Origin: Candidatus Latescibacterota bacterium
GTDB lineage: Bacteria; Latescibacterota; UBA2968; UBA8231
NCBI GenBank assembly: GCA_965217095.1
Contig: OZ244235.1
Span: forward strand, 5,268,609-5,332,608
Length of the DNA: 64,000 nucleotides
Reading direction: 5' to 3'
Numbering within the stretch: the stretch's first letter is position 1; every line of letters starts with the position of its first letter. This document shows positions 1 to 25,382 of the stretch, piece by piece. The translations under genes and the position numbers were made by a program. Below the pieces are notes generated by a model. It saw only the letters and a list, made by a program, of their open reading frames with translations, searched no databases and was not told the origin of the DNA.

Positions 1-651
1 GCTCCGTTCGGTGAGGGCTTGAATGCGCCGCCGTCGAACGAGGATATCGCCAGAGTGGCGACGGCAACGCTGTCGGATCCCGCCACCCACATTAGCAGGA
101 GCTATCGGCCGACTGGCCCCGAGCTGATTTCACCGCAGGATATCGCCGGCATCTTGAGTAACGTCCTCGAGCGCAAGGTCACCTACAAAGACGTGCCTTT
201 TAAGGCCTTCAATAAAGCGGCCGTTGCTCAGGGCTTTCCGGTTTCCGATATCGCCCACATCCACTACTACGCTGAGGACCTCAGAAATGGTGCGTTCGCC
301 GTCGGAGCCCCGACCGATCACGTGCGCCAAGTCACTGGCGTCGAACCCGAAGGCTTCGAGTCGATCGCACGACGCTACACTCAGAATCCGTCGCTGATTC
401 ACCCGAAGCTCGACACCGGATCGAGAATTGGCGCCATTCGGTTTCTCTTGAAGTTGATCGCTACCCCGCCAGCGGACCTGGAAGCCTGGGAGCGCGATCG
501 TGGATATCCGTTGCTGAACGATCCGACCCTGGCACAACAGAGCGCCGAGTGGCGCGAGACGGCTCAGCGACAACAACTGAATCTGCTGCCGGAAGTTGCG
601 GTTGATGACGCACGTCATGGCGATATCAAACTGACGGCGATAGCGTCGTAA
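1..651 (+). CDS. NmrA-like / NAD(P)H-binding family protein, C-terminal part (5' end outside window)
   Basis: The reading frame is open from nt 1, so the ORF track's M at nt 19 is internal. Motifs PQDIAGILSNVLERKVTYKDVPFKAF and the HIHYY region resemble NmrA-family C-termini. Confidence 0.55.
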   Translation, partial: APFGEGLNAPPSNEDIARVATATLSDPATHISRSYRPTGPELISPQDIAGILSNVLERKVTYKDVPFKAFNKAAVAQGFPVSDIAHIHYYAEDLRNGAFAVGAPTDHVRQVTGVEPEGFESIARRYTQNPSLIHPKLDTGSRIGAIRFLLKLIATPPADLEAWERDRGYPLLNDPTLAQQSAEWRETAQRQQLNLLPEVAVDDARHGDIKLTAIAS

Positions 652-691
652 CCGATCGATACAGCTACTGTTTGGTTAAGGAGATAGACCG

Positions 692-1555
692 ATGACCTCC
701 ACACACATAACTGAAACCCAGATTCTTCCCCCGTTGCCAGTGTCACGCCCGGATTCGATTAACGGCAATGATGGAGACGACTACCGTTACGAGACCTTCC
801 GTGCGGGTGTGCTCATGAACGACGCCCGGTTCTCACCCGATGCCCTCAAGCCGGGGCAACTCCTGCCGGACCAAACGCTGGTCCGACCGGACGGCGAAGA
901 GATCTCGTTGCGAAATCTAGCGGCCGGTCGGCCGATCGTACTCGTAACCGGCTCGCTTACGTGCCCTCTCAGCATCAGCTCACTGCCCGCATTCGCACAG
1001 TTGAACCGCACCTACGGCGAACGCGTGGCCTTCGCCTTCATCTATACTCGCGAGGCTCATCCCGGCGAAAGTCTGGGGCAACCCTCGACCCTGGAGGAAA
1101 AGATGGAGCATGCACGCCAGCTGCAAGAGGTCCACCGAGTCGATTGGCCCGTGTTAGTGGACGATCTGGACGGCACCGTCCATCGGAAGCTGGATACCAA
1201 GCAGAATTCCGTCCACATTGCTGACGCCGAGGGCCGGGTTGTATTTCGAGCCCTCTTTGCAGGTAGTAACGCGGTGGGAAAAGCGATCGCCGCCGTCGCC
1301 GAGACGGGGCAGCCTCACAAAAGCCAGATTCATGGCATGCTAACTGGCTCCATGAGGTCGATCGGCTACATCGACGAGACCCTGCGACTAGCTGGCTCGA
1401 AAGCCTACCGCGACGTCATCAAAGCTCTGCCACCGATGGCTGCCGTAGCACTGATGGCTCGCGCCTTCCCGTTCCTGCCTAAAGCCAACCGTGGTTGGGC
1501 GGCGATATCGCTGATGCTCGGCGCGGTTGCCGCCCTATGGCTCGCTTTCAGGTAG
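692..1555 (+). CDS. thioredoxin-fold (redoxin / deiodinase-like) protein with C-terminal hydrophobic anchor
   Basis: 287-aa ORF. The motif VLVTGSLTCPLS...LPAF is a Cys-containing Trx-fold active-site-like motif. The C-terminal AAVALMARAFPFL...AAISLMLGAVAALWLAF segment looks like a transmembrane anchor. Confidence 0.45.
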   Translation: MTSTHITETQILPPLPVSRPDSINGNDGDDYRYETFRAGVLMNDARFSPDALKPGQLLPDQTLVRPDGEEISLRNLAAGRPIVLVTGSLTCPLSISSLPAFAQLNRTYGERVAFAFIYTREAHPGESLGQPSTLEEKMEHARQLQEVHRVDWPVLVDDLDGTVHRKLDTKQNSVHIADAEGRVVFRALFAGSNAVGKAIAAVAETGQPHKSQIHGMLTGSMRSIGYIDETLRLAGSKAYRDVIKALPPMAAVALMARAFPFLPKANRGWAAISLMLGAVAALWLAFR

Positions 1556-1640
1556 AAACCACTGACCCAGAGGATCCCATGGTTGCATCATTCTCTCAAT
1601 TCACGAAGCCCTGGGCGATCTAGTTTTATTTGAGCAGTAT

Positions 1641-1654
1641 GTTGCATATACAAC
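1641..1654. promoter_or_regulatory. palindromic operator-like site GTTGCATATACAAC (copy 1 of 3, one mismatch)
   Basis: Near-perfect 14-bp palindrome 33 nt upstream of the RBS/ATG of the DUF1918-like gene. The same motif recurs at 2781 and 3300 around the MarR gene. Confidence 0.5.
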
Positions 1655-1686
1655 TTGCGAATCTCAATTCAAAAAGGAGGTAAGAG

Positions 1687-1950
1687 ATGTCTCGTTTTGA
1701 ACCGGGAAATACCGTCCGCTTCACCCATCAACAGGATCTAATAATCGGCGAAGTGGAGGAGATACGGCGAGGGTTTGAAGGGGATCATGTGCTCGTCGTC
1801 CGTCAAGGCGGACCATGGTCGGGTGATCGCTATATGGTCCTGTCGAGCTACGTGGAAAAGATCGGGTCTCACACTGCGGAGACTGAGGTGGACTTTCGGG
1901 CGGCTTCCCATGGGCAGCATAAGCCCAGCACACTCTCTACCGAGCACTAG
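1687..1950 (+). CDS. small DUF1918-like protein (hypothetical)
   Basis: 87-aa ORF with a strong RBS (AAAAAGGAGG). Weak resemblance to the DUF1918 small β-barrel proteins. The palindromic site lies just upstream. Confidence 0.5.
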   Translation: MSRFEPGNTVRFTHQQDLIIGEVEEIRRGFEGDHVLVVRQGGPWSGDRYMVLSSYVEKIGSHTAETEVDFRAASHGQHKPSTLSTEH

Positions 1951-1970
1951 CGCAAAAGGAGCACTCAAAA

Positions 1971-2449
1971 TGACGACCACAACTTTTCCATTTTCAATCA
2001 ATCACCACCTACGGGCAAAGAATCTGAACGTAGAACCGCCGAGAAGTCCGTATGAGAAAATCGCCGATCATGTGTTTGCAGCCCGGACCCTGGATAAGTG
2101 TCGGTCCTATCTGGCTGGAACACTCGGTGAATACGAGTTCAACTGCAAGCTCGATCGGCGGTGGTTCGACTTCACCGGAATCAACGTCATCGACTTTATG
2201 GAGTTCGTGGCTACTGGCGCGGATGACGATGAGGTGGATCGCTGGATTCGCGAGTATTCGGTTGCACGGGAGCGAGTCCAGATCGTGCAATGGAACAACC
2301 AAATGCGGGAACTGCGGATTAGCGAACTTCCAGAGCGGTCTCAAGTCTATATAGAGGACCTCTTATCATCTATCGTACCCTCAGGCAGATCACCGGCCAC
2401 CCTGTTCGAGGTTTTTGAGGTTGACGAAGGACGTCTGGAACTCGGATAA
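1971..2449 (+). CDS. hypothetical protein (about 159 aa)
   Basis: The ORF track gives 1775..2449. The likely start is the internal ATG at 1971 (MTTTTFPF...), preceded by AAGGAG. No family recognised. Confidence 0.5.
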
Positions 2450-2457
2450 GAGGCGAC

Positions 2458-2760
2458 ATGTCTGAGTTAATCTACAAGTGCACCAGTCGATGGGTCGTGC
2501 GGCGAGCGCTGCTACAAGCGCTCGTGGTTGGCCCCGTCCTAACTGCCATCAATCACGGAGGTGCGATTCTCCGAATGGAACTGGACGGGGCCCGAGTGCT
2601 GGCGATCGGTCTGACCCTCGTTGTGCCTTATCTGATTTCGACCATATCTATCGTGTCGGCGATGAACCGGAGTACACTTGACCCATCCCAAAAGCGCGCC
2701 GATATGTGGGCGCGAGGTACTTCTTGCGACCAAACGGTTTCAGCCAGCTGCGGTGAATAA
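2458..2760 (+). CDS. NrtS-like small membrane protein (putative nitrate/nitrite transporter NrtS family)
   Basis: 100 aa. RRALLQALVVGPVLTAINHGGAIL followed by a second hydrophobic helix resembles NrtS-family proteins. Confidence 0.4.
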   Translation: MSELIYKCTSRWVVRRALLQALVVGPVLTAINHGGAILRMELDGARVLAIGLTLVVPYLISTISIVSAMNRSTLDPSQKRADMWARGTSCDQTVSASCGE

Positions 2761-2761
2761 T

Positions 2762-2794
2762 TTGACAAGCCCGCTTTTTAGTTGTATATACAAT
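2762..2794 (+). promoter_or_regulatory. sigma70-like promoter (TTGACA-17-TATATA) overlapping palindrome GTTGTATATACAAT (copy 2)
   Basis: TTGACA at 2762-2767, a 17-bp spacer, then TATATA at 2785-2790. The -10 sits inside the palindrome. This is a typical autoregulated MarR promoter layout directly upstream of the MarR gene. Confidence 0.55.
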
Positions 2795-2822
2795 GAAACC
2801 TAGTCGCAGGAGGACATTTTAG

Positions 2823-3278
2823 TTGGGAAAAACGCAGGTAAGTTCCGGCGAAGCCACCGAAGTCAACTGTAGCTGTATCGCTGACAAGGTTCGGCTCCTT
2901 AACCGGGTAATTACAAAAGTCTACGACGACGCGCTAAAACCGGCTGGCATCACGACGGCACAGATGAACATTCTAGGGGTCGTCGCCAAATACGGGGATG
3001 CAACGCCTCGACAGGTATGTGACTGGTTGTCCATGGAAAAGTCGACGTTGAGTCGAAACTGTCGTCGCTTGCGCGAAAACGGCTGGATGAACGTAATCGA
3101 AGAAGATGGACGTGCCCATAGGTTTCAGATTACCGCCAAGGGTGCCAGGCTGTGGAAGAGAATCGTGCCCTTGTGGCAGGAGGCACAGGACCAGGTACAT
3201 GCACTTGTAGGCGAGCGTGGCGTAAGAGACGTGATGCGGATTGCCAATACCGTGAGGTCTCTCGATGCCGCCGAATAG
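2823..3278 (+). CDS. MarR family transcriptional regulator
   Basis: 151 aa with a TTG start after a GGAGGA RBS. Winged-helix MarR signature ITTAQMNILGVVAKYGDATPRQVCDWLSMEKSTLSRNCRRLRENGWMN. Confidence 0.8.
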   Translation: MGKTQVSSGEATEVNCSCIADKVRLLNRVITKVYDDALKPAGITTAQMNILGVVAKYGDATPRQVCDWLSMEKSTLSRNCRRLRENGWMNVIEEDGRAHRFQITAKGARLWKRIVPLWQEAQDQVHALVGERGVRDVMRIANTVRSLDAAE

Positions 3279-3299
3279 GGACTCTTTTTTGTGCTCTGT

Positions 3300-3313
3300 G
3301 TTGTATATACAAC
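3300..3313. promoter_or_regulatory. perfect palindrome GTTGTATATACAAC (copy 3)
   Basis: Identical 14-bp perfect palindrome 22 nt downstream of the MarR stop and upstream of the sensor-kinase gene. Confidence 0.5.
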
Positions 3314-3354
3314 TTTTTGAGTATAGGCCAGCGACGAGTATTCGTGTACTGCTC

Positions 3355-3374
3355 CGTAATTTCGTGAAATTACG
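3355..3374. promoter_or_regulatory. inverted repeat CGTAATTTC-GT-GAAATTACG in the sensor-kinase leader
   Basis: 9-bp perfect inverted arms with a 2-nt spacer, about 85 nt upstream of the kinase start. Confidence 0.35.
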
Positions 3375-3459
3375 AAATGTCGAGAGTCGTCGGTGCGTTC
3401 AGAGGCCAGGAGATGAACTGCAAGGACCTACTCAAAACCGATCGAAAACAGGGACTTAA

Positions 3460-5274
3460 GTGAATCCTCAAAGACAGAGGCAACCAATGGCACAAGAATT
3501 GCCAGAACTCGAATCGAGGGCACCATTGAAACAACAACCCACCAACATACATCGGGCGCCTTTCGAGCCCATCGTGATGAACGGCAATTCGATCAGAGGT
3601 AAACCCTTTGACTCTGGCCGCCCAGCTACCAAGGATTTCTTCCAGAGGGTTGTGCGCCCACTCACCGGATCTGCTGCCATTTTCGCCTTGATGAGCGTTG
3701 CGATTGCTTGGGCTGTTGGTATTTACGTTTACAAACTCGGCACAGATGAAGCGACGAAAATCGTGTACGAAAAGAATCTGACTCTGGCCCATGCGTTTGA
3801 ACAGTACGCCCGTAACGAGGGTGGTAATGGCAGCTCAGATCTGAGTTCCGTCCGAGCCGCCTGGAAACAGATGGACCAACCACCTGGAAGCTACCTGTGC
3901 ATCATTGGTGCGGACGGGATGGCAAAGGTTCACACAGCAGAGCCGGCTCTGGTGGGCACGTACATGGGGGACCAACGGATCGACGCCCATGGGTCGGGTC
4001 CACGCACGGTCAATCAGCTATTCGAAACCCGCCAAGATTGGGTCGGCCCTTCATACGGACTGAACGGCCAGGAAGAGATAGGTGCGTTCGTCTACAGCGA
4101 TGTCCTGGACGCACTGGTGGGCGTCTACAATCCGGCGCACTTGATAAACTCCGAGATTAGAGCCGCGGCGATGCCGGAGGCGGCAGGTATCGCGCTGGTC
4201 ACTACGGTACTTTTACCGATTACGTTTGTATTCCTGCACCGAGCCTACAAGGCCTCCCGGAGAGAGCTGGAGAGGACGAACGTGGAACTCAGGCAGGAGA
4301 TCCATGAGCGCCTAGCACTCGAGGGGAAAAACCGGCTGCTTGCGGCCTTCCCGCGGGAGAATCCGAACCCCGTCCTTGCCTGCGACAAGGAGGGGACGGT
4401 GGTGTACGCCAACGAGGCGGCGCAGCAGCTTCTCGACCAAACGGAGCTTGGGGAGAGCGGCAGATTGTTTCCCACAAATGAGTTTTCCCGGCCACAAAAT
4501 TGCCTTGACGAGGGCAAGTGCCGCTGGGGCATCGAAACAATCCTGGGCGATAGGGTGTATTCCTGGACCTACAATCCGGTTCCTTCCATCGAATGCATTC
4601 ACATCTACGGGAGAGACGTTACCGAGACCAAGCGTGCGCACGAGCGCATCGAGGAGTCTCTACGGGAAAAGGAGATTCTGCTGCAGGAAGTGTATCATCG
4701 CGTCAAGAACAACCTGCAGATCGTCTCCAGCCTGCTCAAGCAGCAATCGGCTGCTGTGCAAAACGAAGAAGCTCGCGGCGTGTTCAGCGAGATGCAGCAT
4801 CGCATCCACTCGATGGCACTGGTGCATCAGGCGCTCTATCAGTCGACCGATCTGGGCCAGATCGCCTTCGACGGATACATAAGGAACCTAGCGGCCAATC
4901 TCGTTCGCTCCAGCAACCAACAGGACCGCCGAGTCGCGTTGGAGTTTGATTTGGAGGAAATATCTCTCGGTCTCGACTACGCCATCCCCTGCGGTCTCAT
5001 CCTCAACGAACTGATTACCAATGCGATCAAATATGCGTTCCCGGAGGGCCGCCGGGGAACGATTCGGGTCGAATTGCGTAAGCTGACAGAGGGAAGTTTC
5101 AGAATGGCGGTCAGCGATGACGGTGCGGGGATCTCGGGCGGCATTGACCTGGAGAATCCGCTCACTCTGGGGCTGCGACTGGTGCACGATTTGACCTATC
5201 AATTGGGTGGAGAAATGAAGATTGATCACATCAATGGTACCACATTTCAGCTGACGTTCTCAGAGTCGGCTTAA
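3460..5274 (+). CDS. sensor histidine kinase (periplasmic sensor domain, PAS, HisKA_2, HATPase_c)
   Basis: 604 aa. GTG at 3460, or ATG at 3487. Two transmembrane segments flank a roughly 170-aa periplasmic region, followed by a PAS-like region. H-box LQEVYHRVKNNLQIVSSLL is the HisKA_2 type. C-terminal ATPase motifs NELITNAIKYAF and DDGAG. Confidence 0.8.
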   Translation: MNPQRQRQPMAQELPELESRAPLKQQPTNIHRAPFEPIVMNGNSIRGKPFDSGRPATKDFFQRVVRPLTGSAAIFALMSVAIAWAVGIYVYKLGTDEATKIVYEKNLTLAHAFEQYARNEGGNGSSDLSSVRAAWKQMDQPPGSYLCIIGADGMAKVHTAEPALVGTYMGDQRIDAHGSGPRTVNQLFETRQDWVGPSYGLNGQEEIGAFVYSDVLDALVGVYNPAHLINSEIRAAAMPEAAGIALVTTVLLPITFVFLHRAYKASRRELERTNVELRQEIHERLALEGKNRLLAAFPRENPNPVLACDKEGTVVYANEAAQQLLDQTELGESGRLFPTNEFSRPQNCLDEGKCRWGIETILGDRVYSWTYNPVPSIECIHIYGRDVTETKRAHERIEESLREKEILLQEVYHRVKNNLQIVSSLLKQQSAAVQNEEARGVFSEMQHRIHSMALVHQALYQSTDLGQIAFDGYIRNLAANLVRSSNQQDRRVALEFDLEEISLGLDYAIPCGLILNELITNAIKYAFPEGRRGTIRVELRKLTEGSFRMAVSDDGAGISGGIDLENPLTLGLRLVHDLTYQLGGEMKIDHINGTTFQLTFSESA

Positions 5275-5291
5275 GTCAGGAGAAAGGATAT

Positions 5292-5311
5292 GAAAAAGAC
5301 TCGCATACTAG
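5292..5311 (+). pseudogene. orphaned 5' end (codons 1-7, MKKTRIL) of the response-regulator gene, separated from the rest by an IS insertion
   Basis: ATG AAA AAG ACT CGC ATA CTA G sits directly after the kinase stop with RBS AGGAGAAAGG. Removing the IS plus one CTAG copy restores MKKTRILVVEDEILVARDL, a canonical receiver-domain N-terminus. Confidence 0.7.
5308..5311. repeat. target-site duplication CTAG (left)
   Basis: Identical 4-bp CTAG directly abuts both IS termini. Confidence 0.7.
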
Positions 5312-6946
5312 CCTGAATAATTCATGAATCCGCACCAAGCGAACGAATTCGGTGCGCTGGTCAATGGCTGGACGTTTTGGTAGCGGGTTGATCGAGTGCT
5401 GTCGGTCGTCGAGGTGTTGTCTGGGAGATCTGAGCCTCTTTTGGATGTCATTGGGACAGTCGGGTCCCTTGGTGGATCGTGTGCGTGGATGTAGTGGGAC
5501 ATCGCAAAGCATCATGAGGTGTCGAGGTTGAGGACGACGGTGCGCATCAGATCCTTGAGCGGGTATGACGTCGGAAAGTGAAAACGGACCTTGGTGGCTT
5601 GCTCCCGCACGCGGGCGCCGATTTTGAGCACCCGGAGTTGGATCGTGTTAAAGTTGGACGTCGTCCATTGGGTGCCGCGCATGCCAATCTGTTGGATCGT
5701 GTGCAGCAGCACGTAGGCCGCGCTGTGCAGGAAGAGGCGAAATTGGTTGGCCGAGAAGCGGTGGCAGGAGGTGCGGTCGGACTGCAGGTAGGTCTTGTGA
5801 TTCTTGATGAAGCCTTCCGACCGCCCACGAGCGCAGTAGATCTCCTCATACAGAAACTCGGGAGAGCGGTTGCGGATATTGGTCACCACGAAGCGCGGGT
5901 TGGCTTTGCCTTGTGTGATCTCGGCCTTGTAGATAATCTGGCGCGGTCGGGGCCAGCTCTTGGCCTGATACTCGAAGCGGTCAAAAAGCCGCACCGGTTC
6001 ATCGCTCTGCTCGGCCAGCGCCGCCACCAGCTCCATCAGCGGTTCGCCGAGTGCCTTGAGCTTGTTGTTGATCGCCTGTCCCAGAATGAAATCAATACCG
6101 TATCCGTCGCACAGGTCGTGCACCTCAGGGGTGCTGAAGTGTGAGTCGCCTCGTAAGGTGATCTTCGTCTTCGGCCACACCATGATCAAATGATCCAACA
6201 CGCGTTTGAGGATGGCTACCGCCTCTCGGCCTCGCATTCTACGACCGGGTCGCAGCAGCGTCGTGATCAATTTGCCCGACTCCCCTTCGTAGAGATGGAC
6301 CGGAAGGTAGCAATACTCGTCATAGTAGGCATGGAACAACGTGAGTTGCTGGGCGCCGTGTGCCGGATCGTCCGTGTCGTCGATGTCGATGGTGAGCTTC
6401 TTGGGCGGCTGGTCGTAAGACTCGATGAATATTTCCAGCAAAGCGAGCCCGATGCGATACAGATCCGAGCGGCTGACACTGTTTTCCAAACGAGACATGG
6501 TTGGTTGACTGGCCAAATCGTCTCCCGTCAGAGGCAGACGGTCGCACGCGGTTTTCAGACCCGGATCGCAACGCAGGTCGTCACTGTCATTGGCGTCCTC
6601 GTAGCCACAGGCGATCTGGAATACGCGCTGCCGGATGAGGTCAGTATACGTATGGTCGATATAGCTTTGATGTCGACGATCCGACATCGCCGCCACGATT
6701 CGGTCGACGATCCCGGTGCGGGCTTCCGCTGGTCGCAGAAGCAGGGCGCCCCCATCACTGGTGGTCATGCCACCGTCAAAATCAGCTTCGATCTTTTTGC
6801 CCGAGATGTTTGCAAACGATAGCGCGATCTGCGAAGTTTCCATCTGCGGTGGCCCTCTTGATTGGTTGTTGTTTGTGGGTAACCCTAACGTAGGGCAAAA
6901 CAACCAGTTGTACAGAGGCTCACCGCATTTTTATGAATAATTCAGG
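5312..6946 (-). mobile_element. IS1380-family insertion sequence (1635 bp)
   Basis: Terminal inverted repeats CCTGAATAATTCATGAA (5312-5328) and CCTGAATTATTCATAAA (reverse complement of 6930-6946) match at 15 of 17 positions and start with CC as in IS1380. Flanked by a 4-bp CTAG duplication. Single 443-aa DDE transposase ORF. Confidence 0.8.
5512..6843 (-). CDS. IS1380-family DDE transposase
   Basis: The ORF track gives 5512..6903. The likely start is METSQIAL at 6843. The N-terminus (SFANISGKKIEADFDGGMTTSDGGALLLRPAEARTGI) and overall length are typical of IS1380 transposases. Confidence 0.8.
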   Translation of the reverse strand: METSQIALSFANISGKKIEADFDGGMTTSDGGALLLRPAEARTGIVDRIVAAMSDRRHQSYIDHTYTDLIRQRVFQIACGYEDANDSDDLRCDPGLKTACDRLPLTGDDLASQPTMSRLENSVSRSDLYRIGLALLEIFIESYDQPPKKLTIDIDDTDDPAHGAQQLTLFHAYYDEYCYLPVHLYEGESGKLITTLLRPGRRMRGREAVAILKRVLDHLIMVWPKTKITLRGDSHFSTPEVHDLCDGYGIDFILGQAINNKLKALGEPLMELVAALAEQSDEPVRLFDRFEYQAKSWPRPRQIIYKAEITQGKANPRFVVTNIRNRSPEFLYEEIYCARGRSEGFIKNHKTYLQSDRTSCHRFSANQFRLFLHSAAYVLLHTIQQIGMRGTQWTTSNFNTIQLRVLKIGARVREQATKVRFHFPTSYPLKDLMRTVVLNLDTS

Positions 6947-6950
6947 CTAG
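6947..6950. repeat. target-site duplication CTAG (right)
   Basis: See the left duplication. Confidence 0.7.
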
Positions 6951-7891
6951 TGGTAGAGGATGAAATTCTCGTCGCAAGAGACCTGCAGTCCAGTTTGGAA
7001 CTCCTTGGATACGACGTTCCAGAGATTGCTATCTCGGGCGCGGAGGCGTTGGAAAAAATAAAAGCTACTCAACCAGATGTGGTGCTGATGGATATCCACC
7101 TGAAGGGCGACATGGATGGCGTGGAGGCCGCTGGCATAATCCGCGAGCAGTACGACATCGCGCTCATCTACCTGACCGCATACGCCGACGACCAGACCCT
7201 GCAGCGCGCGAAACTCACGCAGCCGTACGGCTACCTGTTAAAACCGTATCAGGAAACAGAGTTGAAAACCACTATCGAAGTGGCCCTCTACAAACATGAA
7301 ACCGAGGACAAGCTGAAGGTCGCCCACCTGCAACTGGAGCGCGCGCATGCGCAGATCCGGCGCCAGGTGCGGGAGTTGGAGGGCCGTGACCAGCTGGTGC
7401 GATTTCAGGTGACCGGTCCCACCGTTGTCGAGGCTTGCGATCAGATCGCTCGGATCTTTTCCGCTGTTTTCGGGCCCACTCAAATCGCGGTCTATCTGCC
7501 CGACGCCAGCGCTACCTGGCTCGAGTTGACTTCGAGTTCCGTCGCGGGTATCGACAGCACCGATCTCACTGACAGATTGGTCGCCAACGATCCGGATTCA
7601 CTGGTTGCCGCGTCTTTTCGGCATGCCGCTGCGCGGCTCAGTGTCGACGGCGGGCAAGCGGCGGTCGCCATGCGCTACGGAGACCGGGCTGTGGGTGTGG
7701 TTATGCTCGCGGCCGTCGAGCAGGAAAGTTGGCCGGCCGCCGAGCTGATCCCGGCTTTGCGTCGACTAGGTGAACAATCGGCTTTACTGCTGCGCATGGC
7801 CCGGGTTGCGACGGAACTGGATGGAGGACAGCTAACGGTTGAGGAACTCCTGGAGCTCGAGGAAGAGGCCAGCTATGACGATGGTGCGTGA
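6950..7891 (+). CDS. response regulator (REC plus C-terminal coiled-coil/GAF-like domain), 5'-disrupted by IS1380
   Basis: The REC domain begins abruptly at VVEDEILVARD... with only a GTG available at the IS junction. The native start lies at 5292, upstream of the IS. The C-terminal ~180 aa look GAF-like. Confidence 0.7.
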   Translation: MVEDEILVARDLQSSLELLGYDVPEIAISGAEALEKIKATQPDVVLMDIHLKGDMDGVEAAGIIREQYDIALIYLTAYADDQTLQRAKLTQPYGYLLKPYQETELKTTIEVALYKHETEDKLKVAHLQLERAHAQIRRQVRELEGRDQLVRFQVTGPTVVEACDQIARIFSAVFGPTQIAVYLPDASATWLELTSSSVAGIDSTDLTDRLVANDPDSLVAASFRHAAARLSVDGGQAAVAMRYGDRAVGVVMLAAVEQESWPAAELIPALRRLGEQSALLLRMARVATELDGGQLTVEELLELEEEASYDDGA

Positions 7892-10133
7892 GCGACCCAT
7901 GAAACGGCGATCTTCTTTGCTCGAGTCAGAACTCCCCGATCCCGCACTATCCGATGTTGAAAGTGTCGACCGCTTTCTGGAAGAGGTCGACGCGTTCGCT
8001 GAGTACGATCCGGACGCTTCCGTTGCAGAGCCGCAATCAGTCAGCGTGCATCAACAGCAACGGATCCGCCGCTTGGCGAGCGCTCTTGGGAGGGTGGCTG
8101 CGGACCTGAAGCGCGTTGAGGCGCCGCCCGGATTCGAACCCGCGGGGGCCCAGCCGTACTATGAGCTGGATATGGAAGGACAGCGACTGGCCATTCGCCA
8201 CGATGGGCTGCAAGCCTTTTGGATTTCCGATCCCGACTGGCAGGAACCGGAACGGCTGGCTGAGCTGCTCCACGCCCATGGTCTCATAGAGATCAATCGA
8301 GAGGCGATTACGGGCGGAGCACAGCGACTGCGGGACCAGTGGATTGAGGTAGCCGCAGGATCCGCCCCCACCGCGGGTCACGCAGCCCAGATCGGCTTCG
8401 TGGAACCGGGCAACCCGAACTCAGAGATTTCACCGGAATCGCTGGGTTTGATTTCCCTGGAACTGGCAGAGACGTTGAAATCCCAGGATGCCAAGGCCAT
8501 CCGCAAGAATCGCAGCGCCCTCGTCGCCGCACCCGGCGATCTGTTGGCCCGAGCCACATCCCCGACGCCTGGCCAATCGGGGCAAGACATATTCGGCCGG
8601 AACGTGGCGGCCGCGATCGAGAGCCGGGAACTCCATCTGCAAGCGGGATCCCACGTGACCTCGACGGACGCCGGGGAGTTTCATGCTGCCCGGTACGGCT
8701 ATGTCGCTATTGAGGACGGTCGACTTTCCATTCTGCCACCCATTCGAAGCGATGCCACCTCCATGAACGCCCACTGGGCGATGATGGGTAGCCAACGCTC
8801 CTCCCTTACAGTCGCGATGATCCAAGAGTGGCTGGTCGAGCTCGACGTCAACACGGGTGTGAAAGTGGATGTCATCGAAGCTCTGGTGGCCAAGGTCGGC
8901 GCTGGCGAGCACCCCACCGGCAGGCACCTAATTGCTGTCGGCTCGAGCCCTGTCGACGGGGAGGACGCGCATGTGGAAATTCTGGTAGATATGGAACGAA
9001 GCGCCGGCAAAGAGCGGGAAGATGGCTCCATCGATTTCAGGGAAGTCAACTTCACTCCCAACGTACGAGCGGGTCAGCGGGTGGCCTGGCGCACTAGCCC
9101 GACAACCGGCACCCCGGGCTGGGACCTTACCGGTAACGCCCAACCTGCCAACAACGGCAAGGAGCAGGTGTTGCAGGCTGGAGAGAACGTCCGGGTTGTC
9201 GAAGAGAGCGACCAAGAGGAGTACTACTCGTTGATCGACGGAGTGCTGAAACAGCACGGAGACGAACTTTCGGTGGCAGAGCGCCTAACCATCAACGGCG
9301 ATGTGAGTTATCGCACCGGAAATCTGGACTTCGGCGGCGAGATCTTTGTTAACGGTTCGGTGCTCTCTGGATTCTCGGTCAAGGCGGCCGGCGATATTAC
9401 GGTTTCCGGCACCTTAGAACCTGGCGCCACGCTTCAATCCGGAGGAGATATCGCCGTCGGCAAGGGGATACTGGGGCGCAAAACCAAGGTGAAGGCCGAG
9501 GGGAACATTCGCGCCCAGCTAGTCCAGGAGGCCAACCTGCGCGCCGGAAACAACATTCAAGTCGGCAATTATATCTACCATGCCAACGTCAAAGCCAAAG
9601 GGAAAGTTCTGGTATCTCGCGGCAAAGGTCGTCGGGGGGGAAGCATCATGGGAGGTGAGACCTGGGGCATGTTGGGCGTCGAAGCGCATATCGTCGGAAC
9701 GCCCAGCGAAACTCCGACGACGCTGGTGGCGGGTTTGAGTTACGAAGATGCTCAGTTGCTCGACCGGCTGGAACGTAGCATTGGCACTGCCAGCGATCAC
9801 ATCGAACGCCTTCTCGAACGATTTGCGCTCGATCACTTCGATCTCGTTCAGATCCGCAACATGATCAAGGCAGCCGTCGGTCCGAAACGCAAGATACTCG
9901 CCAAGAATGCGCGCCAGCTGGGACAGCTTGCCCAGATGTATCAACAGCTGTTGGAGCGGCGCGGAACCTTGAGAGAAAGGGTGGAATCGGTGCGCGAGTG
10001 CATAGAGGTAAAGATCTGGGACAGCGCTCATGCCGGCGTAGAAGCCCGATTGGGAGAATTTCGCCGCCGGCTCTCGGAGTTGTACCGGGCACCGCGATTT
10101 CATATCAAAGAGGGCACGATGGTGGCGGCCTAG
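7875..10133 (+). CDS. FapA/DUF342-like β-solenoid protein
   Basis: Long ORF, 764 aa by the track from 7839. Probable start ATG at 7875 or 7899. The C-terminal half is full of short β-helix repeats (GDVSYRTGNLDFGGEIFVNGSV, GDITVSGTL, GGDIAVGKG, GNIRAQLV, GNNIQVGNY), then a coiled coil, as in FapA proteins. Located 3' of the kinase/regulator pair. Confidence 0.5.
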   Translation: MTMVRERPMKRRSSLLESELPDPALSDVESVDRFLEEVDAFAEYDPDASVAEPQSVSVHQQQRIRRLASALGRVAADLKRVEAPPGFEPAGAQPYYELDMEGQRLAIRHDGLQAFWISDPDWQEPERLAELLHAHGLIEINREAITGGAQRLRDQWIEVAAGSAPTAGHAAQIGFVEPGNPNSEISPESLGLISLELAETLKSQDAKAIRKNRSALVAAPGDLLARATSPTPGQSGQDIFGRNVAAAIESRELHLQAGSHVTSTDAGEFHAARYGYVAIEDGRLSILPPIRSDATSMNAHWAMMGSQRSSLTVAMIQEWLVELDVNTGVKVDVIEALVAKVGAGEHPTGRHLIAVGSSPVDGEDAHVEILVDMERSAGKEREDGSIDFREVNFTPNVRAGQRVAWRTSPTTGTPGWDLTGNAQPANNGKEQVLQAGENVRVVEESDQEEYYSLIDGVLKQHGDELSVAERLTINGDVSYRTGNLDFGGEIFVNGSVLSGFSVKAAGDITVSGTLEPGATLQSGGDIAVGKGILGRKTKVKAEGNIRAQLVQEANLRAGNNIQVGNYIYHANVKAKGKVLVSRGKGRRGGSIMGGETWGMLGVEAHIVGTPSETPTTLVAGLSYEDAQLLDRLERSIGTASDHIERLLERFALDHFDLVQIRNMIKAAVGPKRKILAKNARQLGQLAQMYQQLLERRGTLRERVESVRECIEVKIWDSAHAGVEARLGEFRRRLSELYRAPRFHIKEGTMVAA

Positions 10134-23879: not shown

Positions 23880-25382
23880 ATGGACCATGGACCTCAGCTA
23901 ATCGAACCTCACAAACACCGCCAGCTGTTCGCGGACGACGACGCCTTGGAAACGGGGTCCGGCGCCCAAAACCACGGTTGGACGCGGACCATGCATCTAC
24001 CCAAGAAGTGCGGCCCGGTCATTCGTCCTGATCTAACCTGCGGACAGAGGTCGCTGCAAAGTCGCAGCGCGCCGCAATGGAATCCCGAAATGGGCATCTG
24101 GGAATGGTGGTATTTCGGCCAGTACGTCTACTACGCCAGCTCGACCGACGGTGAGAACTGGGACCGCCCATCCCTGGGGCGTTACGAGTGGGAGGGTTCT
24201 AAAGACAACAACATCGCGGACGATCCCGGTACCGGCGAAACCCGGCGATTGACCCATGTCCTTCGCGACGAAGCCGAAGATAATCCGCAGCGACGCTACA
24301 AAGCGCTCTTTACCCGCAGGGCGGTCATCAATGCCAGTAGCCGTTTCTTGGCAACGTCCCCCGACGGGTTCGACTGGACCATTCTGGATCGCCCTCCCAT
24401 ACCCAGCAGCGACGAATGCCACTTCACTTACGACGAGTTCGGCCAGCAGTACCTGGCGCTCGTTAAGCACGGCACCGAATGGGGGCGCTCGGTTTTTCTT
24501 TCCACCAGCAAAGACTTCGAACAGTTCACTGAACCACAGCTTATTTTTCACTCCGACGAGCTCGATCGAGAGAACTGCCGGCGACGCGTACGCAAAGTGA
24601 TTGAGGACCCCGACTATATTACACCGCCCATCGTCGACGATGTGGACTATATGGCCGAGGTCTACCAAATGGCCGTCATGCCGTACGAGGGATGTTATTT
24701 CGGGTTCCCCGCTCTGTTCAATCCGTTCGGAGCCATCGCCCCACCCGACAAGAACTTCACCCGCATCAACCAGGTGGAACTGGCGTTTTCCCGTGACCTC
24801 CACAACTGGGACCGGCTCGGGGATCGACAGGTGTTTGTCGGCATCGACCGGTGGGACGGCGAAACCTACGGTACAAGCCAGATCCTGTTGACCGCCCGCC
24901 CGGTAGTGCGCCCGGATCTTGGAGAGATCTGGGTTTATTACAACGCCCTGCGTAATCCGGGGAATCGGGAACAATACCAGCAATTGAACCGCAACCGGGA
25001 ACTCTTCAGACTCAATGTGGATCCAGAGCTCTTCGAGGATGCTGGCGCCCTGTCGTTGGCAAAGCTTCGCTTGGACGGTTTTATCTCGCTCGACGGCGGC
25101 GAGTCGGCGACCATCACTACCAAACCGTTCATGCTCAGAGGAGAAGAGGTATACATCAACGTCGACGCCAAATGGGGTGCGATCTTTACCGAGATAGTCG
25201 ATGGGGAAACCATGAAACGTTTCCCTGACTGCACTGTAATTGGCGAACCAATCAGCGGCGATCACCTGCGCGCGAAGATAACTTGGCAGGGCGAACACGA
25301 CCGGGTCTTCGAGCGGCCGGTTCGTCTCATCTTCGACCTGCACCAGACGCGCCTTTACTCCTTCTGGCTGCAGAAGGAATAA
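23880..25382 (+). CDS. glycoside-hydrolase-like β-propeller protein (GH32/43-clan-like, family uncertain)
   Basis: 500 aa. LAFSRDLHNWDR-type motif. A paralogue with the same LAFSRD/IAFSRDG signature lies at 49672..51072. Confidence 0.45.
   Translation: MDHGPQLIEPHKHRQLFADDDALETGSGAQNHGWTRTMHLPKKCGPVIRPDLTCGQRSLQSRSAPQWNPEMGIWEWWYFGQYVYYASSTDGENWDRPSLGRYEWEGSKDNNIADDPGTGETRRLTHVLRDEAEDNPQRRYKALFTRRAVINASSRFLATSPDGFDWTILDRPPIPSSDECHFTYDEFGQQYLALVKHGTEWGRSVFLSTSKDFEQFTEPQLIFHSDELDRENCRRRVRKVIEDPDYITPPIVDDVDYMAEVYQMAVMPYEGCYFGFPALFNPFGAIAPPDKNFTRINQVELAFSRDLHNWDRLGDRQVFVGIDRWDGETYGTSQILLTARPVVRPDLGEIWVYYNALRNPGNREQYQQLNRNRELFRLNVDPELFEDAGALSLAKLRLDGFISLDGGESATITTKPFMLRGEEVYINVDAKWGAIFTEIVDGETMKRFPDCTVIGEPISGDHLRAKITWQGEHDRVFERPVRLIFDLHQTRLYSFWLQKE

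What the first reader, a model, noticed from the sequence alone, without database searches (positions are those of the whole stretch)
1641..3374. Three copies of a perfect 14-bp palindrome GTTGTATATACAAC around a MarR regulator: a compact regulon of small proteins
The palindrome (or a one-mismatch version) occurs three times within 1.7 kb:
- Upstream of the DUF1918-like gene (1641).
- Embedded in the -10 of a textbook TTGACA-17-TATATA promoter for the MarR gene (2781).
- Just after MarR, ahead of the sensor kinase (3300).

MarR regulators bind such dyads, so this looks like an autoregulated MarR operator set controlling three small proteins (DUF1918-like, an uncharacterised 159-aa protein, NrtS-like) and perhaps the kinase. 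A second, unrelated inverted repeat (CGTAATTTC-GT-GAAATTACG, 3355-3374) lies in the kinase leader.
Basis: seen in the sequence. Interest (0 to 1): 0.6.

Follow-up and report, generated by a model that had tools for sequence, protein, structure and literature searches.

The report
Operators of a MosR-type MarR repressor
The three palindromes are real and are almost certainly the DNA-binding sites of the neighbouring MarR repressor, a distant relative of the tuberculosis oxidation sensor MosR. The same gene-plus-two-sites module recurs in more than a hundred genomes and metagenome contigs from many bacterial phyla.

Summary
GTTGTATATACAAC (at most 1 mismatch) occurs at 1641, 2781 and 3300 and nowhere else in 64 kb (0.08 expected).

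Comparative evidence identifies it as the operator of the adjacent MarR (2823-3278):
- In 20 of the 23 genome loci found with MarR homologues (36-97% identity, about ten phyla), a palindrome with at most 3 mismatches lies just before marR. It overlaps or abuts a TTGACA-type promoter.
- In 18 of the 23 a second copy lies just after marR.
- A metagenome scan for the composite site returned at least 120 loci. In 99 of them marR lies directly upstream.

The closest characterised relative is M. tuberculosis MosR (Rv1049), a thiol-based oxidation sensor. Its locus has the same layout: operator in the promoter, then mosR, then T6, a 9-nt gap, operator, SD and an oxidoreductase gene. The operators share the core TGTA-NN-TACA, and the Cys10 equivalent is conserved.

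Elsewhere the post-marR gene is usually an oxidoreductase-type gene (SnoaL, QueG-like Fe-S, NmrA, Zn-ADH). In this window that slot holds a histidine kinase behind a rearranged leader. Site 1 precedes the 87-aa / DUF5069 / NrtS-like genes.

The second inverted repeat (3355-3374) is not conserved.

Verdict: a new, uncharacterised branch of a known kind. One conserved feature remains unexplained: a T-run exactly 9 nt upstream of target-type operators.

The parts
1624..1631 (+). T-rich tract (TTTTATTT) ending 9 nt before operator 1, the 'target-type' upstream element
   Evidence: sequence. D1: the 31-nt stretch 1626-1656 is 81% identical to 3285-3315 (T-run, gap and palindrome). Same geometry as 17/21 post-marR sites in other genomes.
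1641..1654 (.). Operator 1 (GTTGCATATACAAC), target-type site ahead of the 87-aa / DUF5069 / NrtS-like genes
   Evidence: Identical site at the same place in relative L001. Lies 32 nt before the ATG at 1687, with AGGAGG at 1675-1680.
1687..1950 (+). 87-aa ORF of unknown family, first gene after operator 1
   Evidence: no family. 97% identical over 73 aa in L001, where it is truncated by a deletion.
1970..2449 (+). DUF5069 protein (159 aa), probable regulon member
   Evidence: PF16798, E 3e-30. A 57%-identical DUF5069 gene follows marR and a Zn-ADH gene in the Nitrospira locus L002. Deleted in L001, reduced to a remnant in L004.
2458..2760 (+). NrtS-like small membrane protein (100 aa)
   Evidence: NF038050, 38.8 bits against cutoff 25. 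Intact in L001.
2762..2767 (+). -35 hexamer TTGACA of the marR promoter
   Evidence: TTGACA followed by a 13-nt gap and the palindrome recurs in L002, L003 and L005-L008. In metagenome loci the TTGACA-to-palindrome gap clusters at 9, 13 and 24-26 nt.
2781..2794 (.). Operator 2 (GTTGTATATACAAT), autoregulatory site; contains the -10 TATATA (2785-2790), 17 nt from the -35
   Evidence: A palindrome with at most 3 mismatches lies before marR in 20 of the 23 genome loci, and one with at most 2 mismatches in 84 of 99 metagenome loci.
2823..3278 (+). marR: MosR-family MarR repressor (151 aa, TTG start, AGGAGG at 2808-2813), with Cys16-x-Cys18 in helix 1 and recognition helix MEKSTLSRN
   Evidence: MarR_2, HTH_27. 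(best solved relative MosR 4fx0, profile E 2e-22; next best 3.5e-12). (33% identity to MosR). (invariant C18 and recognition helix).
3285..3290 (+). T6 run ending 9 nt before operator 3
   Evidence: a run of at least 5 T with an 8-10 nt gap at 17/21 post-marR sites against 3/22 pre-marR sites (Fisher p 1.2e-5). Also present after M. tuberculosis mosR.
3300..3313 (.). Operator 3 (perfect GTTGTATATACAAC), post-marR target-type site
3487..5274 (+). HisKA_2/PAS sensor kinase, the next gene after operator 3; regulation by MarR possible but unproven
   Evidence: The leader is 173 nt here but 60 nt in L001, where a 111-bp stretch (window 3318-3428) is absent, and L004 has a truncated kinase. Elsewhere the start codon is usually 10-30 nt after the palindrome.

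Best explanation
The three 14-bp palindromes are operators for the dimeric winged-helix repressor encoded at 2823-3278. This protein belongs to the MosR branch of the MarR family. Operator 2 overlaps the -10 of the marR promoter (TTGACA-17-TATATA), so the protein represses its own synthesis by blocking RNA polymerase binding. Operators 1 and 3 are 'target-type' sites, each a T-rich tract followed by 9 nt and the palindrome. Operator 3 sits just after the marR stop codon, in the position that in other genomes immediately precedes the Shine-Dalgarno sequence of the regulated gene. Operator 1 precedes the 87-aa/DUF5069/NrtS-like genes. By analogy with MosR, oxidation or alkylation of the conserved N-terminal cysteine (Cys18, with Cys16 nearby in this protein) is inferred to release the repressor and derepress marR and its targets.

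Shown here:
- the sites exist and are far above chance;
- they co-occur with this MarR subfamily across phyla;
- the pre-marR site overlaps or abuts the promoter;
- the protein is homologous to MosR, and the MosR locus has the same architecture.

Inferred, not shown:
- actual binding of the protein to the sites;
- the redox signal;
- which window genes respond.
For: 1. Non-random sites: (3 found, 0.08 expected).
2. Cross-phylum footprint: loci found through the MarR protein alone carry the palindrome next to marR. L001-L003 and 20 of 23 genome loci (Latescibacterota, Acidobacteriota, Planctomycetota, Nitrospinota, Nitrospirota, Desulfobacterota, Geobacter, Thermodesulfovibrio, Victivallales) have it before marR, and 18 of 23 also after. 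Apart from two 3-mismatch matches in L019, no match lies more than about 210 nt from marR in those roughly 8-kb loci.
3. Reverse test: scanning metagenomes for TTTTTT-N9-GTTGTATATACAAC gave at least 120 loci. In 99 a MarR homologue lies directly upstream on the same strand, and 84 of 99 have a second palindrome 454-541 nt upstream, that is before marR.
4. Repressor geometry: pre-marR palindromes overlap the -10 (TTGACA-13-palindrome) or follow a TTGACA-17-TATAAT-like promoter by 0-2 nt. In Acidobacteriota the ATG lies 4 nt after the palindrome, as expected for a leaderless transcript from that promoter.
5. Protein: invariant recognition helix MEKSTxSR and invariant Cys18. Among 83 metagenome MarRs the helix is E(K/R)ST(L/V/I/A/M)(S/T)R, and 81 have the N-terminal Cys.
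6. MosR link: best solved relative, E 2e-22. The M. tuberculosis locus reads TTGACA-6-GTGTAGCTACAC before mosR and TTTTTT-9 nt-TGTGTAGTTACACC-SD-ATG(rv1050, SDR) after it. MosR residues R70, T71 and R75 read the half-site GTGTA (PMC3936728); their equivalents K73, S74 and R78 are conserved here, and the G and T that MosR R75 contacts are kept in TTGTA.
7. Target genes elsewhere are redox or electrophile-type enzymes, consistent with a thiol sensor.
Against: - No binding or expression data exist for this protein.
- The same 12-mer TTGTATATACAA is the operator of unrelated GntR/HutC-type regulators: the TreR box in Bacillus licheniformis (PMC11356801) and four HutC-like (GntR-type) loci in the metagenome scan. 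The sequence alone does not identify the binder.
- The MosR Cys12 equivalent is Ala in this family. The second Cys of the window protein (Cys16) lies on the other side of the conserved Cys, so the MosR disulfide mechanism cannot simply be transferred.
- The Lys-for-Arg70 change does not track the operator strictly: 10 of 83 proteins with the TTGTA operator have Arg.
- In this window the post-marR slot holds no oxidoreductase, and the leader is rearranged in relatives, so the physiological output here may be partly decayed.
Confidence: 0.85

Rival explanations
1. The palindromes are bound by a GntR/HutC-family regulator encoded elsewhere in the genome, not by the adjacent MarR. TTGTATATACAA is a classical HutC/TreR-type box.
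For: The TreR box of Bacillus licheniformis is exactly TTGTATATACAA. Four metagenome loci with the same composite site (L056, L071, L106, L109) have a HutC-like GntR gene downstream and no MarR.
Against: No GntR/HutC-like gene is found in the 64-kb window. The only gene constantly associated with paired palindromes is marR: 99 of 120 metagenome loci, and most genome loci found through the protein alone. The MosR homologue with a solved DNA complex reads the related GTGTA-NN-TACAC site in an identical locus layout.
Confidence: 0.04
2. The palindromes act as RNA or terminator hairpins, for example GUUGUAUAUACAAC followed by UUUUU after marR as an intrinsic terminator, rather than as protein-binding DNA sites.
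For: Site 3 is followed by TTTTT and site 1 by TT. The palindrome can form a 5-bp hairpin in the predicted fold of 3240-3400.
Against: The stem is short, has only two G-C pairs, and is not listed by the terminator scan. A T-run after the palindrome is not conserved in other loci; the conserved T-run lies before it. The pre-marR copy lies in the core promoter, largely upstream of the expected start site. There are no Rfam matches.
Confidence: 0.03
3. The two palindromes flanking marR are boundaries of a mobile or recombining gene cassette, such as recombinase target sites. This would explain why marR with its flanks appears next to different genes and why the surroundings differ by deletions among close relatives.
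For: The marR-plus-two-palindromes unit is conserved while downstream genes vary. L007 carries a duplicated marR 3' end with T-run and palindrome. The window, L001 and L004 differ by several indels around marR.
Against: No integrase or transposase is consistently nearby. The IS at 5307-6951 has its own unrelated 22-bp inverted repeats. The upstream palindrome is integrated with a -35/-10 promoter at several defined spacings, and the downstream one with a Shine-Dalgarno sequence, as expected for regulatory sites. The indels do not end at the palindromes (breakpoints 1901/2427 and 3317/3429).
Confidence: 0.03

Closest known systems
MosR (Rv1049) of Mycobacterium tuberculosis, an oxidation-sensing MarR-family repressor (PDB 4FX0 and 4FX4; Brugarolas et al. 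2012, cited through PMC5823404 and PMC3936728)
   Same: - Best solved relative (profile E 2e-22); 33% identity.
- The conserved N-terminal Cys aligns with MosR Cys10 without gaps.
- The recognition helix ExxTLxRN is shared, with MosR's R75 identical and T71 conservatively replaced (Ser).
- The operator core TGTA-NN-TACA has identical half-site spacing.
- The locus layout is identical: promoter-embedded operator, regulator gene, T6, 9 nt, second operator, SD and target gene.
- Targets in most relatives are oxidoreductases, like rv1050.
   Different: - The half-site is TTGTA(T) rather than GTGTA(G), and Lys mostly replaces MosR Arg70.
- MosR Cys12 is replaced by Ala; the window protein has an extra Cys two residues before, not after, the conserved one.
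- The family lies outside Actinobacteria and is only 33% identical to MosR.
- In this window the post-regulator gene is a histidine kinase, not an oxidoreductase.
- No experiments exist.
1-Cys OhrR and other thiol-based MarR sensors
   Same: MarR fold. A reactive Cys in the N-terminal helix. AT-rich dyad operator overlapping the promoter. Repression of an adjacent detoxification gene.
   Different: Much weaker sequence similarity (PDB OhrR hits E about 1e-7). Different operator. OhrR usually controls ohr; here the targets differ (SnoaL, QueG-like Fe-S/SCP2, NmrA, Zn-ADH).
HutC/TreR (GntR family) operators
   Same: Identical 12-bp core TTGTATATACAA. HutC-like (GntR-type) loci were picked up by the same DNA pattern.
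   Different: An unrelated protein fold and family. No such regulator is in the window. This is convergence of operator sequence, not homology.

Membership tests
MarR family (winged-helix repressors) | MarR-type winged helix-turn-helix domain of about 140-160 aa | tested here: met
   PF12802 MarR_2 (33.4 bits against cutoff 27) and PF13463 HTH_27; 76 solved MarR-family chains matched.
MarR family (winged-helix repressors) | Binds a (pseudo)palindromic operator that overlaps its own promoter (autoregulation) | tested here: inconclusive
   Sequence and comparative evidence are strong: the palindrome overlaps the -10 at 2781-2794 and is conserved in at least 100 loci. Binding itself cannot be tested with these tools.
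MosR-type oxidation-sensing MarR | Closer in sequence to MosR than to other characterised MarR proteins | tested here: met
   MosR 4fx0 E 2e-22 (82.6 bits); next best solved MarR 3.5e-12 (49.4 bits). No NCBIfam equivalog reaches its cutoff.
MosR-type oxidation-sensing MarR | Redox-active cysteine pair Cys10/Cys12 at the start of helix 1 | tested here: inconclusive
   The Cys10 equivalent (window Cys18) is invariant and present in 81 of 83 relatives. The Cys12 equivalent is Ala. The window protein has Cys16-x-Cys18, which BLASTP aligns with C10-x-C12 only by inserting a 2-residue gap.
MosR-type oxidation-sensing MarR | Operator GTGTA-NN-TACAC read by R70/T71/R75 | tested here: inconclusive
   The core TGTA-NN-TACA and its spacing are shared, the outer base differs (TTGTA), and the K73/S74/R78 equivalents are conserved. 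The K/R choice does not track the operator strictly.
MosR-type oxidation-sensing MarR | Regulator gene followed by a second operator and an oxidoreductase target gene | tested here: inconclusive
   The second operator is present (3300-3313) with the same T6 and 9-nt geometry as after mosR. Oxidoreductase-type targets occur in most relatives, but in this window the next gene is a HisKA_2 kinase 173 nt away.
MosR-type oxidation-sensing MarR | Oxidant-induced dissociation from DNA | not testable with these tools
   Needs EMSA with and without H2O2, organic peroxide or quinone, and Cys mutants.
Intrinsic (Rho-independent) terminator, considered for the T-run after marR | G+C-rich hairpin immediately followed by a U-tract | tested here: not met
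   One search lists no terminator at 3279-3299; hairpins next to the T-run occur in only about a third of 22 loci (mean z -0.39). The T-run keeps a fixed distance to the palindrome, not to the stop codon.
HutC/GntR operator | Adjacent or genomic HutC/GntR-family regulator using the TGTATATACA box | tested here: not met
   No GntR/HutC homologue in the 64-kb window (best E 0.11). The rest of the genome could not be searched.

The most novel reading that the evidence does not exclude
The conserved 'T6-7 run, 9 nt, operator' composite found after marR (and after M. tuberculosis mosR) may be a repressor-dependent conditional terminator. The target gene is co-transcribed with marR. Repressor bound to the intercistronic operator blocks elongating RNA polymerase with its active site on the U-tract, where the weak rU:dA hybrid lets the stalled complex fall off without a hairpin. 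Oxidised repressor leaves, and polymerase reads through into the target gene. This would uncouple the basal repressor synthesis needed for autoregulation from target expression, and would be a hairpin-less, protein-gated termination device conserved across about ten phyla.
Probability: 0.2. Interest if true: 0.7.

Novelty: new member of a known kind. Interest (0 to 1): 0.42.

Why it matters
The result gives an uncharacterised but very widespread MarR subfamily a predicted operator, a predicted signal type and a predicted pan-regulon. The subfamily occurs in Latescibacterota, Acidobacteriota, Planctomycetota, Nitrospirota, Nitrospinota, Desulfobacterota and others. The predicted signal is thiol oxidation or alkylation, by homology with MosR. 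The predicted regulon comprises SnoaL-like, QueG/RDH-like Fe-S plus SCP2, NmrA-like, Zn-ADH/quinone reductase, SDR and DUF5069 genes. All of this is directly testable with one purified protein.

It also shows that the M. tuberculosis mosR-rv1050 layout is an ancient module and not a mycobacterial peculiarity. It further exposes a conserved T-run at fixed spacing from the target operator that, as far as I know, has not been noted and whose function is open.

For this particular window the biology is ordinary: an autoregulated repressor with three operators in a locus that is partly decaying in close relatives.

Tried and rejected
- **T-run as canonical intrinsic terminator.** I folded the 40 nt before the T-run in 22 loci. 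Adjacent hairpins occur in only about a third, with mean z -0.39. Rejected as a general explanation.
- **T-run as a -35 element.** It sits exactly 17 nt from TACAAC (palindrome positions 9-14), the same geometry as the 'TTGACA, 9 nt, palindrome' class of marR promoters. But TTTTTT matches only 2 of 6 positions of TTGACA. All -10 candidates inside a perfect palindrome lack the final T. In 27 of 74 unique leaders the Shine-Dalgarno sequence starts within 4 nt of the palindrome end, so a start site downstream of such a -10 would cut into it. Not excluded for loci with longer leaders.
- **M. tuberculosis public data.** The TSS table of Shell et al. 2015 lists only the leaderless start at the mosR ATG. 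The Term-seq table lists no 3' end at the T-run, only an internal site at 1172585. Both tables were cut when stored and come from non-inducing conditions, so this neither supports nor refutes the roadblock idea.
- **Residue-base covariation (MosR Arg70/G against Lys/T).** Only partly holds: 10 of 83 proteins with the TTGTA operator have Arg.
- **Other MosR-clade loci (L148-L151).** These have convergent downstream genes and no clear second operator, so they are uninformative.
- **Rfam scan of 1-8000.** Nothing found.
- **Original MosR paper (PMC3488046).** Not held. Its operator was taken from the M. tuberculosis DNA itself and from PMC3936728.
- **Genome-wide scan of the source genome.** Not possible.
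Full report
**1. Observation**

The 14-bp palindrome is present exactly where stated:
- GTTGCATATACAAC at 1641-1654;
- GTTGTATATACAAT at 2781-2794;
- GTTGTATATACAAC at 3300-3313.

With up to two mismatches these are the only matches in the 64-kb window, against 0.08 expected from dinucleotide-preserving shuffles. Three mismatches add one, probably chance, match at 24196.

The genes around the sites are all on the + strand:
- an NmrA-like gene fragment (19-651);
- a deiodinase/redoxin-like gene (692-1555);
- an 87-aa ORF with no detectable family (1687-1950; no DUF1918 match);
- DUF5069 (1970-2449);
- an NrtS-like 100-aa membrane protein (2458-2760);
- marR (2823-3278, TTG start behind AGGAGG);
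- a PAS/HisKA_2 kinase (3487-5274).

After the kinase comes an IS (5307-6951, DDE_Tnp_1_4 transposase, 22-bp terminal inverted repeats), followed by a response regulator and a FapA protein.

TTGACA (2762-2767) lies 17 nt from TATATA (2785-2790), which is inside the palindrome. The simple sigma-70 scan did not list this promoter because the -10 lacks the final T.

**2. The palindrome travels with this MarR across phyla**

A protein search with the MarR found few but informative relatives. In the contigs of three of them the core TTGTATATACAA occurs both immediately before and immediately after marR:
- L001, 97% identity;
- L002, a Nitrospira defluvii assembly, 55%;
- L003, 56%.

In L002 and L003 the downstream gene is a Zn-dependent dehydrogenase, not a kinase.

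A scan of one genome per species with an alignment of these MarRs gave 23 loci:
- Latescibacterota (L004, 97% identical to the window's MarR, so probably a close relative of the source organism);
- Acidobacteriota, Planctomycetota, Nitrospinota and Nitrospirota;
- Desulfobacterota, Geobacter/Geomesophilobacter, Thermodesulfovibrio and Syntrophorhabdaceae;
- Gemmatimonadales and Victivallales.

Protein identity in these loci is 36-59% apart from L004. Even so, 20 of the 23 carry the palindrome (0-3 mismatches) before marR, and 18 also carry it after. Apart from two 3-mismatch matches in L019, no match lies more than about 210 nt from marR in these roughly 8-kb loci.

The reverse experiment agrees. 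I scanned metagenome contigs for the DNA pattern TTTTTT-N9-GTTGTATATACAAC.
- In 99 of them an HMM built from the MarR alignment finds a homologue directly upstream on the same strand.
- In 84 of the 99 loci with enough upstream sequence a second palindrome lies 454-541 nt upstream, in front of marR.

Four of the remaining loci are HutC-like (GntR-type) genes. The same 12-mer is the published TreR box of Bacillus licheniformis. The sequence is therefore also used, convergently, by GntR/HutC regulators. No such gene is in the window.

**3. Two classes of site**

*Pre-marR sites* are embedded in a sigma-70-type promoter. Two arrangements occur:
- TTGACA, 13 nt, then the palindrome, so that the palindrome's TATATA is the -10 at a 17-nt spacing. 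This is the arrangement in the window, Nitrospira and Acidobacteriota. In Acidobacteriota the ATG follows the palindrome by 4 nt, as expected for a leaderless mRNA.
- TTGACA-17-TATAAT-like hexamer, with the palindrome 0-2 nt downstream.

In the metagenome set the gap between TTGACA and the palindrome clusters at 9, 13 and 24-26 nt. All of these are classical positions for steric repression.

*Post-marR sites* lack TTGACA (98 of 114). Instead they have a run of 5-9 T ending 9 nt (range 8-10) before the palindrome.
- In the genome set, which was not selected for this feature, the T-run occurs at 17 of 21 post-marR sites against 3 of 22 pre-marR sites (Fisher p 1.2e-5).
- The window's site 3 has it (T6 at 3285-3290).
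- Site 1 has an interrupted version (TTTTATTT, 1624-1631). The 31-nt stretches around sites 1 and 3 are 81% identical (D1).

Sites 1 and 3 are therefore 'target-type' and site 2 is 'autoregulatory'.

**4. What the regulator is**

No NCBIfam equivalog comes near its cutoff. Against solved structures, the family profile hits M. tuberculosis MosR (4fx0/4fx4) at E 2e-22, ten orders of magnitude better than any other MarR. Pairwise identity is 33%.

MosR is a thiol-based oxidation sensor. Its Cys10 and Cys12 form a disulfide, and it represses the adjacent oxidoreductase gene rv1050 (PMC5823404; PMC11351531).

The cysteine that is invariant in the new family (window Cys18; 81 of 83 metagenome relatives) aligns without gaps with MosR Cys10. 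The Cys12 position is Ala. The window protein has an additional Cys16.

I retrieved the M. tuberculosis locus. It reads as follows:
- before mosR: TTGACA, 6 nt, GTGTAGCTACAC, then the leaderless mosR start. The TSS at the A of the ATG comes from Shell et al. 2015 supplementary data;
- after the mosR stop: TTTTTT, gcgcatata (9 nt), TGTGTAGTTACACC, then GAGGAG and the ATG of rv1050.

This is the same architecture, including the T6 run and the 9-nt gap. The operator core TGTA-NN-TACA has the same half-site spacing.

In the MosR-DNA crystal structure, as summarised in PMC3936728, R70, T71 and R75 read GTGTA. The equivalent residues here are K73, S74 and R78. They sit in an essentially invariant helix, and the G and T that MosR R75 contacts are retained in TTGTA.

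The outer base differs (T for G) where Arg70 is mostly Lys. This correlation is not strict: 10 of 83 relatives have Arg.

**5. Targets**

The gene behind the post-marR operator varies. In the genome set it is one of:
- Zn-ADH/quinone-reductase-like;
- a roughly 440-aa QueG/reductive-dehalogenase-like 4Fe-4S protein with an SCP2 domain;
- beta-ketoacyl synthase;
- a PhnB/glyoxalase-like protein;
- an SRPBCC protein.

Among 93 metagenome proteins the counts are SnoaL-like 18, Fer4_16/SCP2 about 17, NmrA-like 12, SDR 4, and single or double cases of MMPL, CMD and KAS. This is the kind of gene set expected for an oxidant or electrophile response.

Two links to the window:
- Its NmrA-like gene (19-651) is 35-49% identical to NmrA genes that are direct targets elsewhere.
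- DUF5069 also follows marR and the Zn-ADH gene in the Nitrospira locus.

In the window lineage, however, the post-marR slot holds the kinase, and the region is in flux.
- L001 lacks window 1902-2426 (the end of the 87-aa ORF and DUF5069), 3318-3428 (111 bp of the kinase leader) and the IS.
- L004 lacks 2068-2726, retains only about 70 bp of DUF5069, and has a kinase with large deletions.
- All three genomes keep marR with operators 2 and 3 intact.

Control of the kinase is therefore possible by position but unproven. Control of the three small genes rests on site 1, which L001 shares but L004 lacks.

**6. The second inverted repeat**

The repeat at 3355-3374 is unique in the window. It lies inside the 111-bp segment missing from L001 and within the stretch deleted in L004. 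It is not conserved, and I see no evidence that it is a regulatory element. It does form a hairpin in the predicted fold of the leader.

**7. How the target-type site may work (inferred)**

In 27 of 74 unique leaders the Shine-Dalgarno sequence begins within 4 nt of the palindrome end. The most common start-codon distance is 11-17 nt. A promoter using a -10 inside the palindrome would start transcription at or inside that Shine-Dalgarno sequence.

M. tuberculosis has no TANNNT-like -10 near its post-mosR site, and no TSS is listed there.

The most economical reading is that target genes are usually co-transcribed with marR and that the second operator is intercistronic. In that position it can act only on elongating polymerase, as a roadblock.

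The T-run is not a canonical terminator, since hairpins are inconsistent. It keeps a fixed distance to the operator rather than to the marR stop codon.

A polymerase halted by a protein bound about 10-14 bp ahead of its active site would sit on the U-tract. From general knowledge of roadblocked elongation complexes, this could promote release. I rate this conditional-terminator idea at about 0.2. M. tuberculosis Term-seq shows no 3' end there under the conditions used, which is uninformative given low expression.

The alternative is that the T-run serves as a weak -35 element, spaced 17 nt from TACAAC. This remains possible for loci with longer leaders, and for stand-alone sites such as L144, where the upstream gene is divergent.

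**8. Verdict**

The system is a new, uncharacterised branch of the MosR-type MarR repressors, with an operator conserved across about ten phyla.

For this window it is an ordinary autoregulated repressor module in a partly decaying locus. The wider value lies in three things:
- the family-wide operator and regulon prediction;
- the demonstration that the mosR-rv1050 layout is ancient;
- the unexplained fixed-spacing T-run.

Noticed in passing
window 3285-3290 and 1624-1631; L147 (M. tuberculosis) about 1950-1956; post-marR sites in L002-L026: A run of 5-9 T ends 8-10 nt (mostly exactly 9) before target-type operators: 17/21 post-marR sites against 3/22 pre-marR sites. It is also present after M. 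tuberculosis mosR. It is not a canonical terminator and not a TTGACA-type -35, and its function is unexplained.
   Followed up: partly
window 5307-6951: An IS element with a DDE_Tnp_1_4 transposase (5512-6903, minus strand) and 22-bp terminal inverted repeats is inserted between the kinase and its response regulator. It is absent from relatives L001 and L004.
   Followed up: partly
window 1902-2426, 2068-2726, 3318-3428, 3345-3693, 3731-4422 compared with L001 and L004: Three closely related genomes (96-98% DNA identity) differ by several deletions clustered around marR. DUF5069 is lost in both relatives, the kinase leader is shortened in L001, and the kinase is truncated in L004. marR and its two flanking operators are intact in all three.
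   Followed up: partly
window 3355-3374: A perfect 9-bp inverted repeat with a 2-nt loop sits in the kinase leader. It is unique in the window, lies in a segment absent from L001 and is deleted in L004, and so is not conserved.
   Followed up: yes
L002 143-811 (Nitrospira defluvii assembly GCA_017114385.1): The deposited 222-aa 'glutaredoxin-MarR fusion' is probably an annotation artefact. The marR promoter (TTGACA at 316-321) and operator (334-347) lie inside the called ORF, and an SD-ATG at 368 gives a normal 147-aa MarR. The upstream 75 aa match Glutaredoxin (E 4.8e-8).
   Followed up: partly
L007 4467-4580: Tandem duplication of the marR 3' end together with the T-run and palindrome, giving two post-marR operators 99 nt apart before a probable Zn-ADH gene.
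   Followed up: no
L056, L071, L106, L109 (metagenome loci): The same palindrome, preceded by a T-run, lies before HutC-like GntR-family repressor genes. TTGTATATACAA is also the published TreR box. This is a case of operator convergence between unrelated regulator families.
   Followed up: partly
window 1594-1608 and 1662-1676: A 15-nt direct repeat (TCTCAATTCACGAAG / TCTCAATTCAAAAAG, 87% identical) flanks operator 1. It may be chance.
   Followed up: no
L011, L014, L015, L019 and many metagenome loci (e.g. L028, L063, L099): The commonest post-marR gene in Planctomycetota, Thermodesulfovibrio and many metagenome contigs is an uncharacterised protein of about 440-450 aa. It combines a QueG/reductive-dehalogenase-like 4Fe-4S region with a C-terminal SCP2 domain, and is a candidate redox or lipid-related enzyme with a now-predicted regulator.
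   Followed up: no
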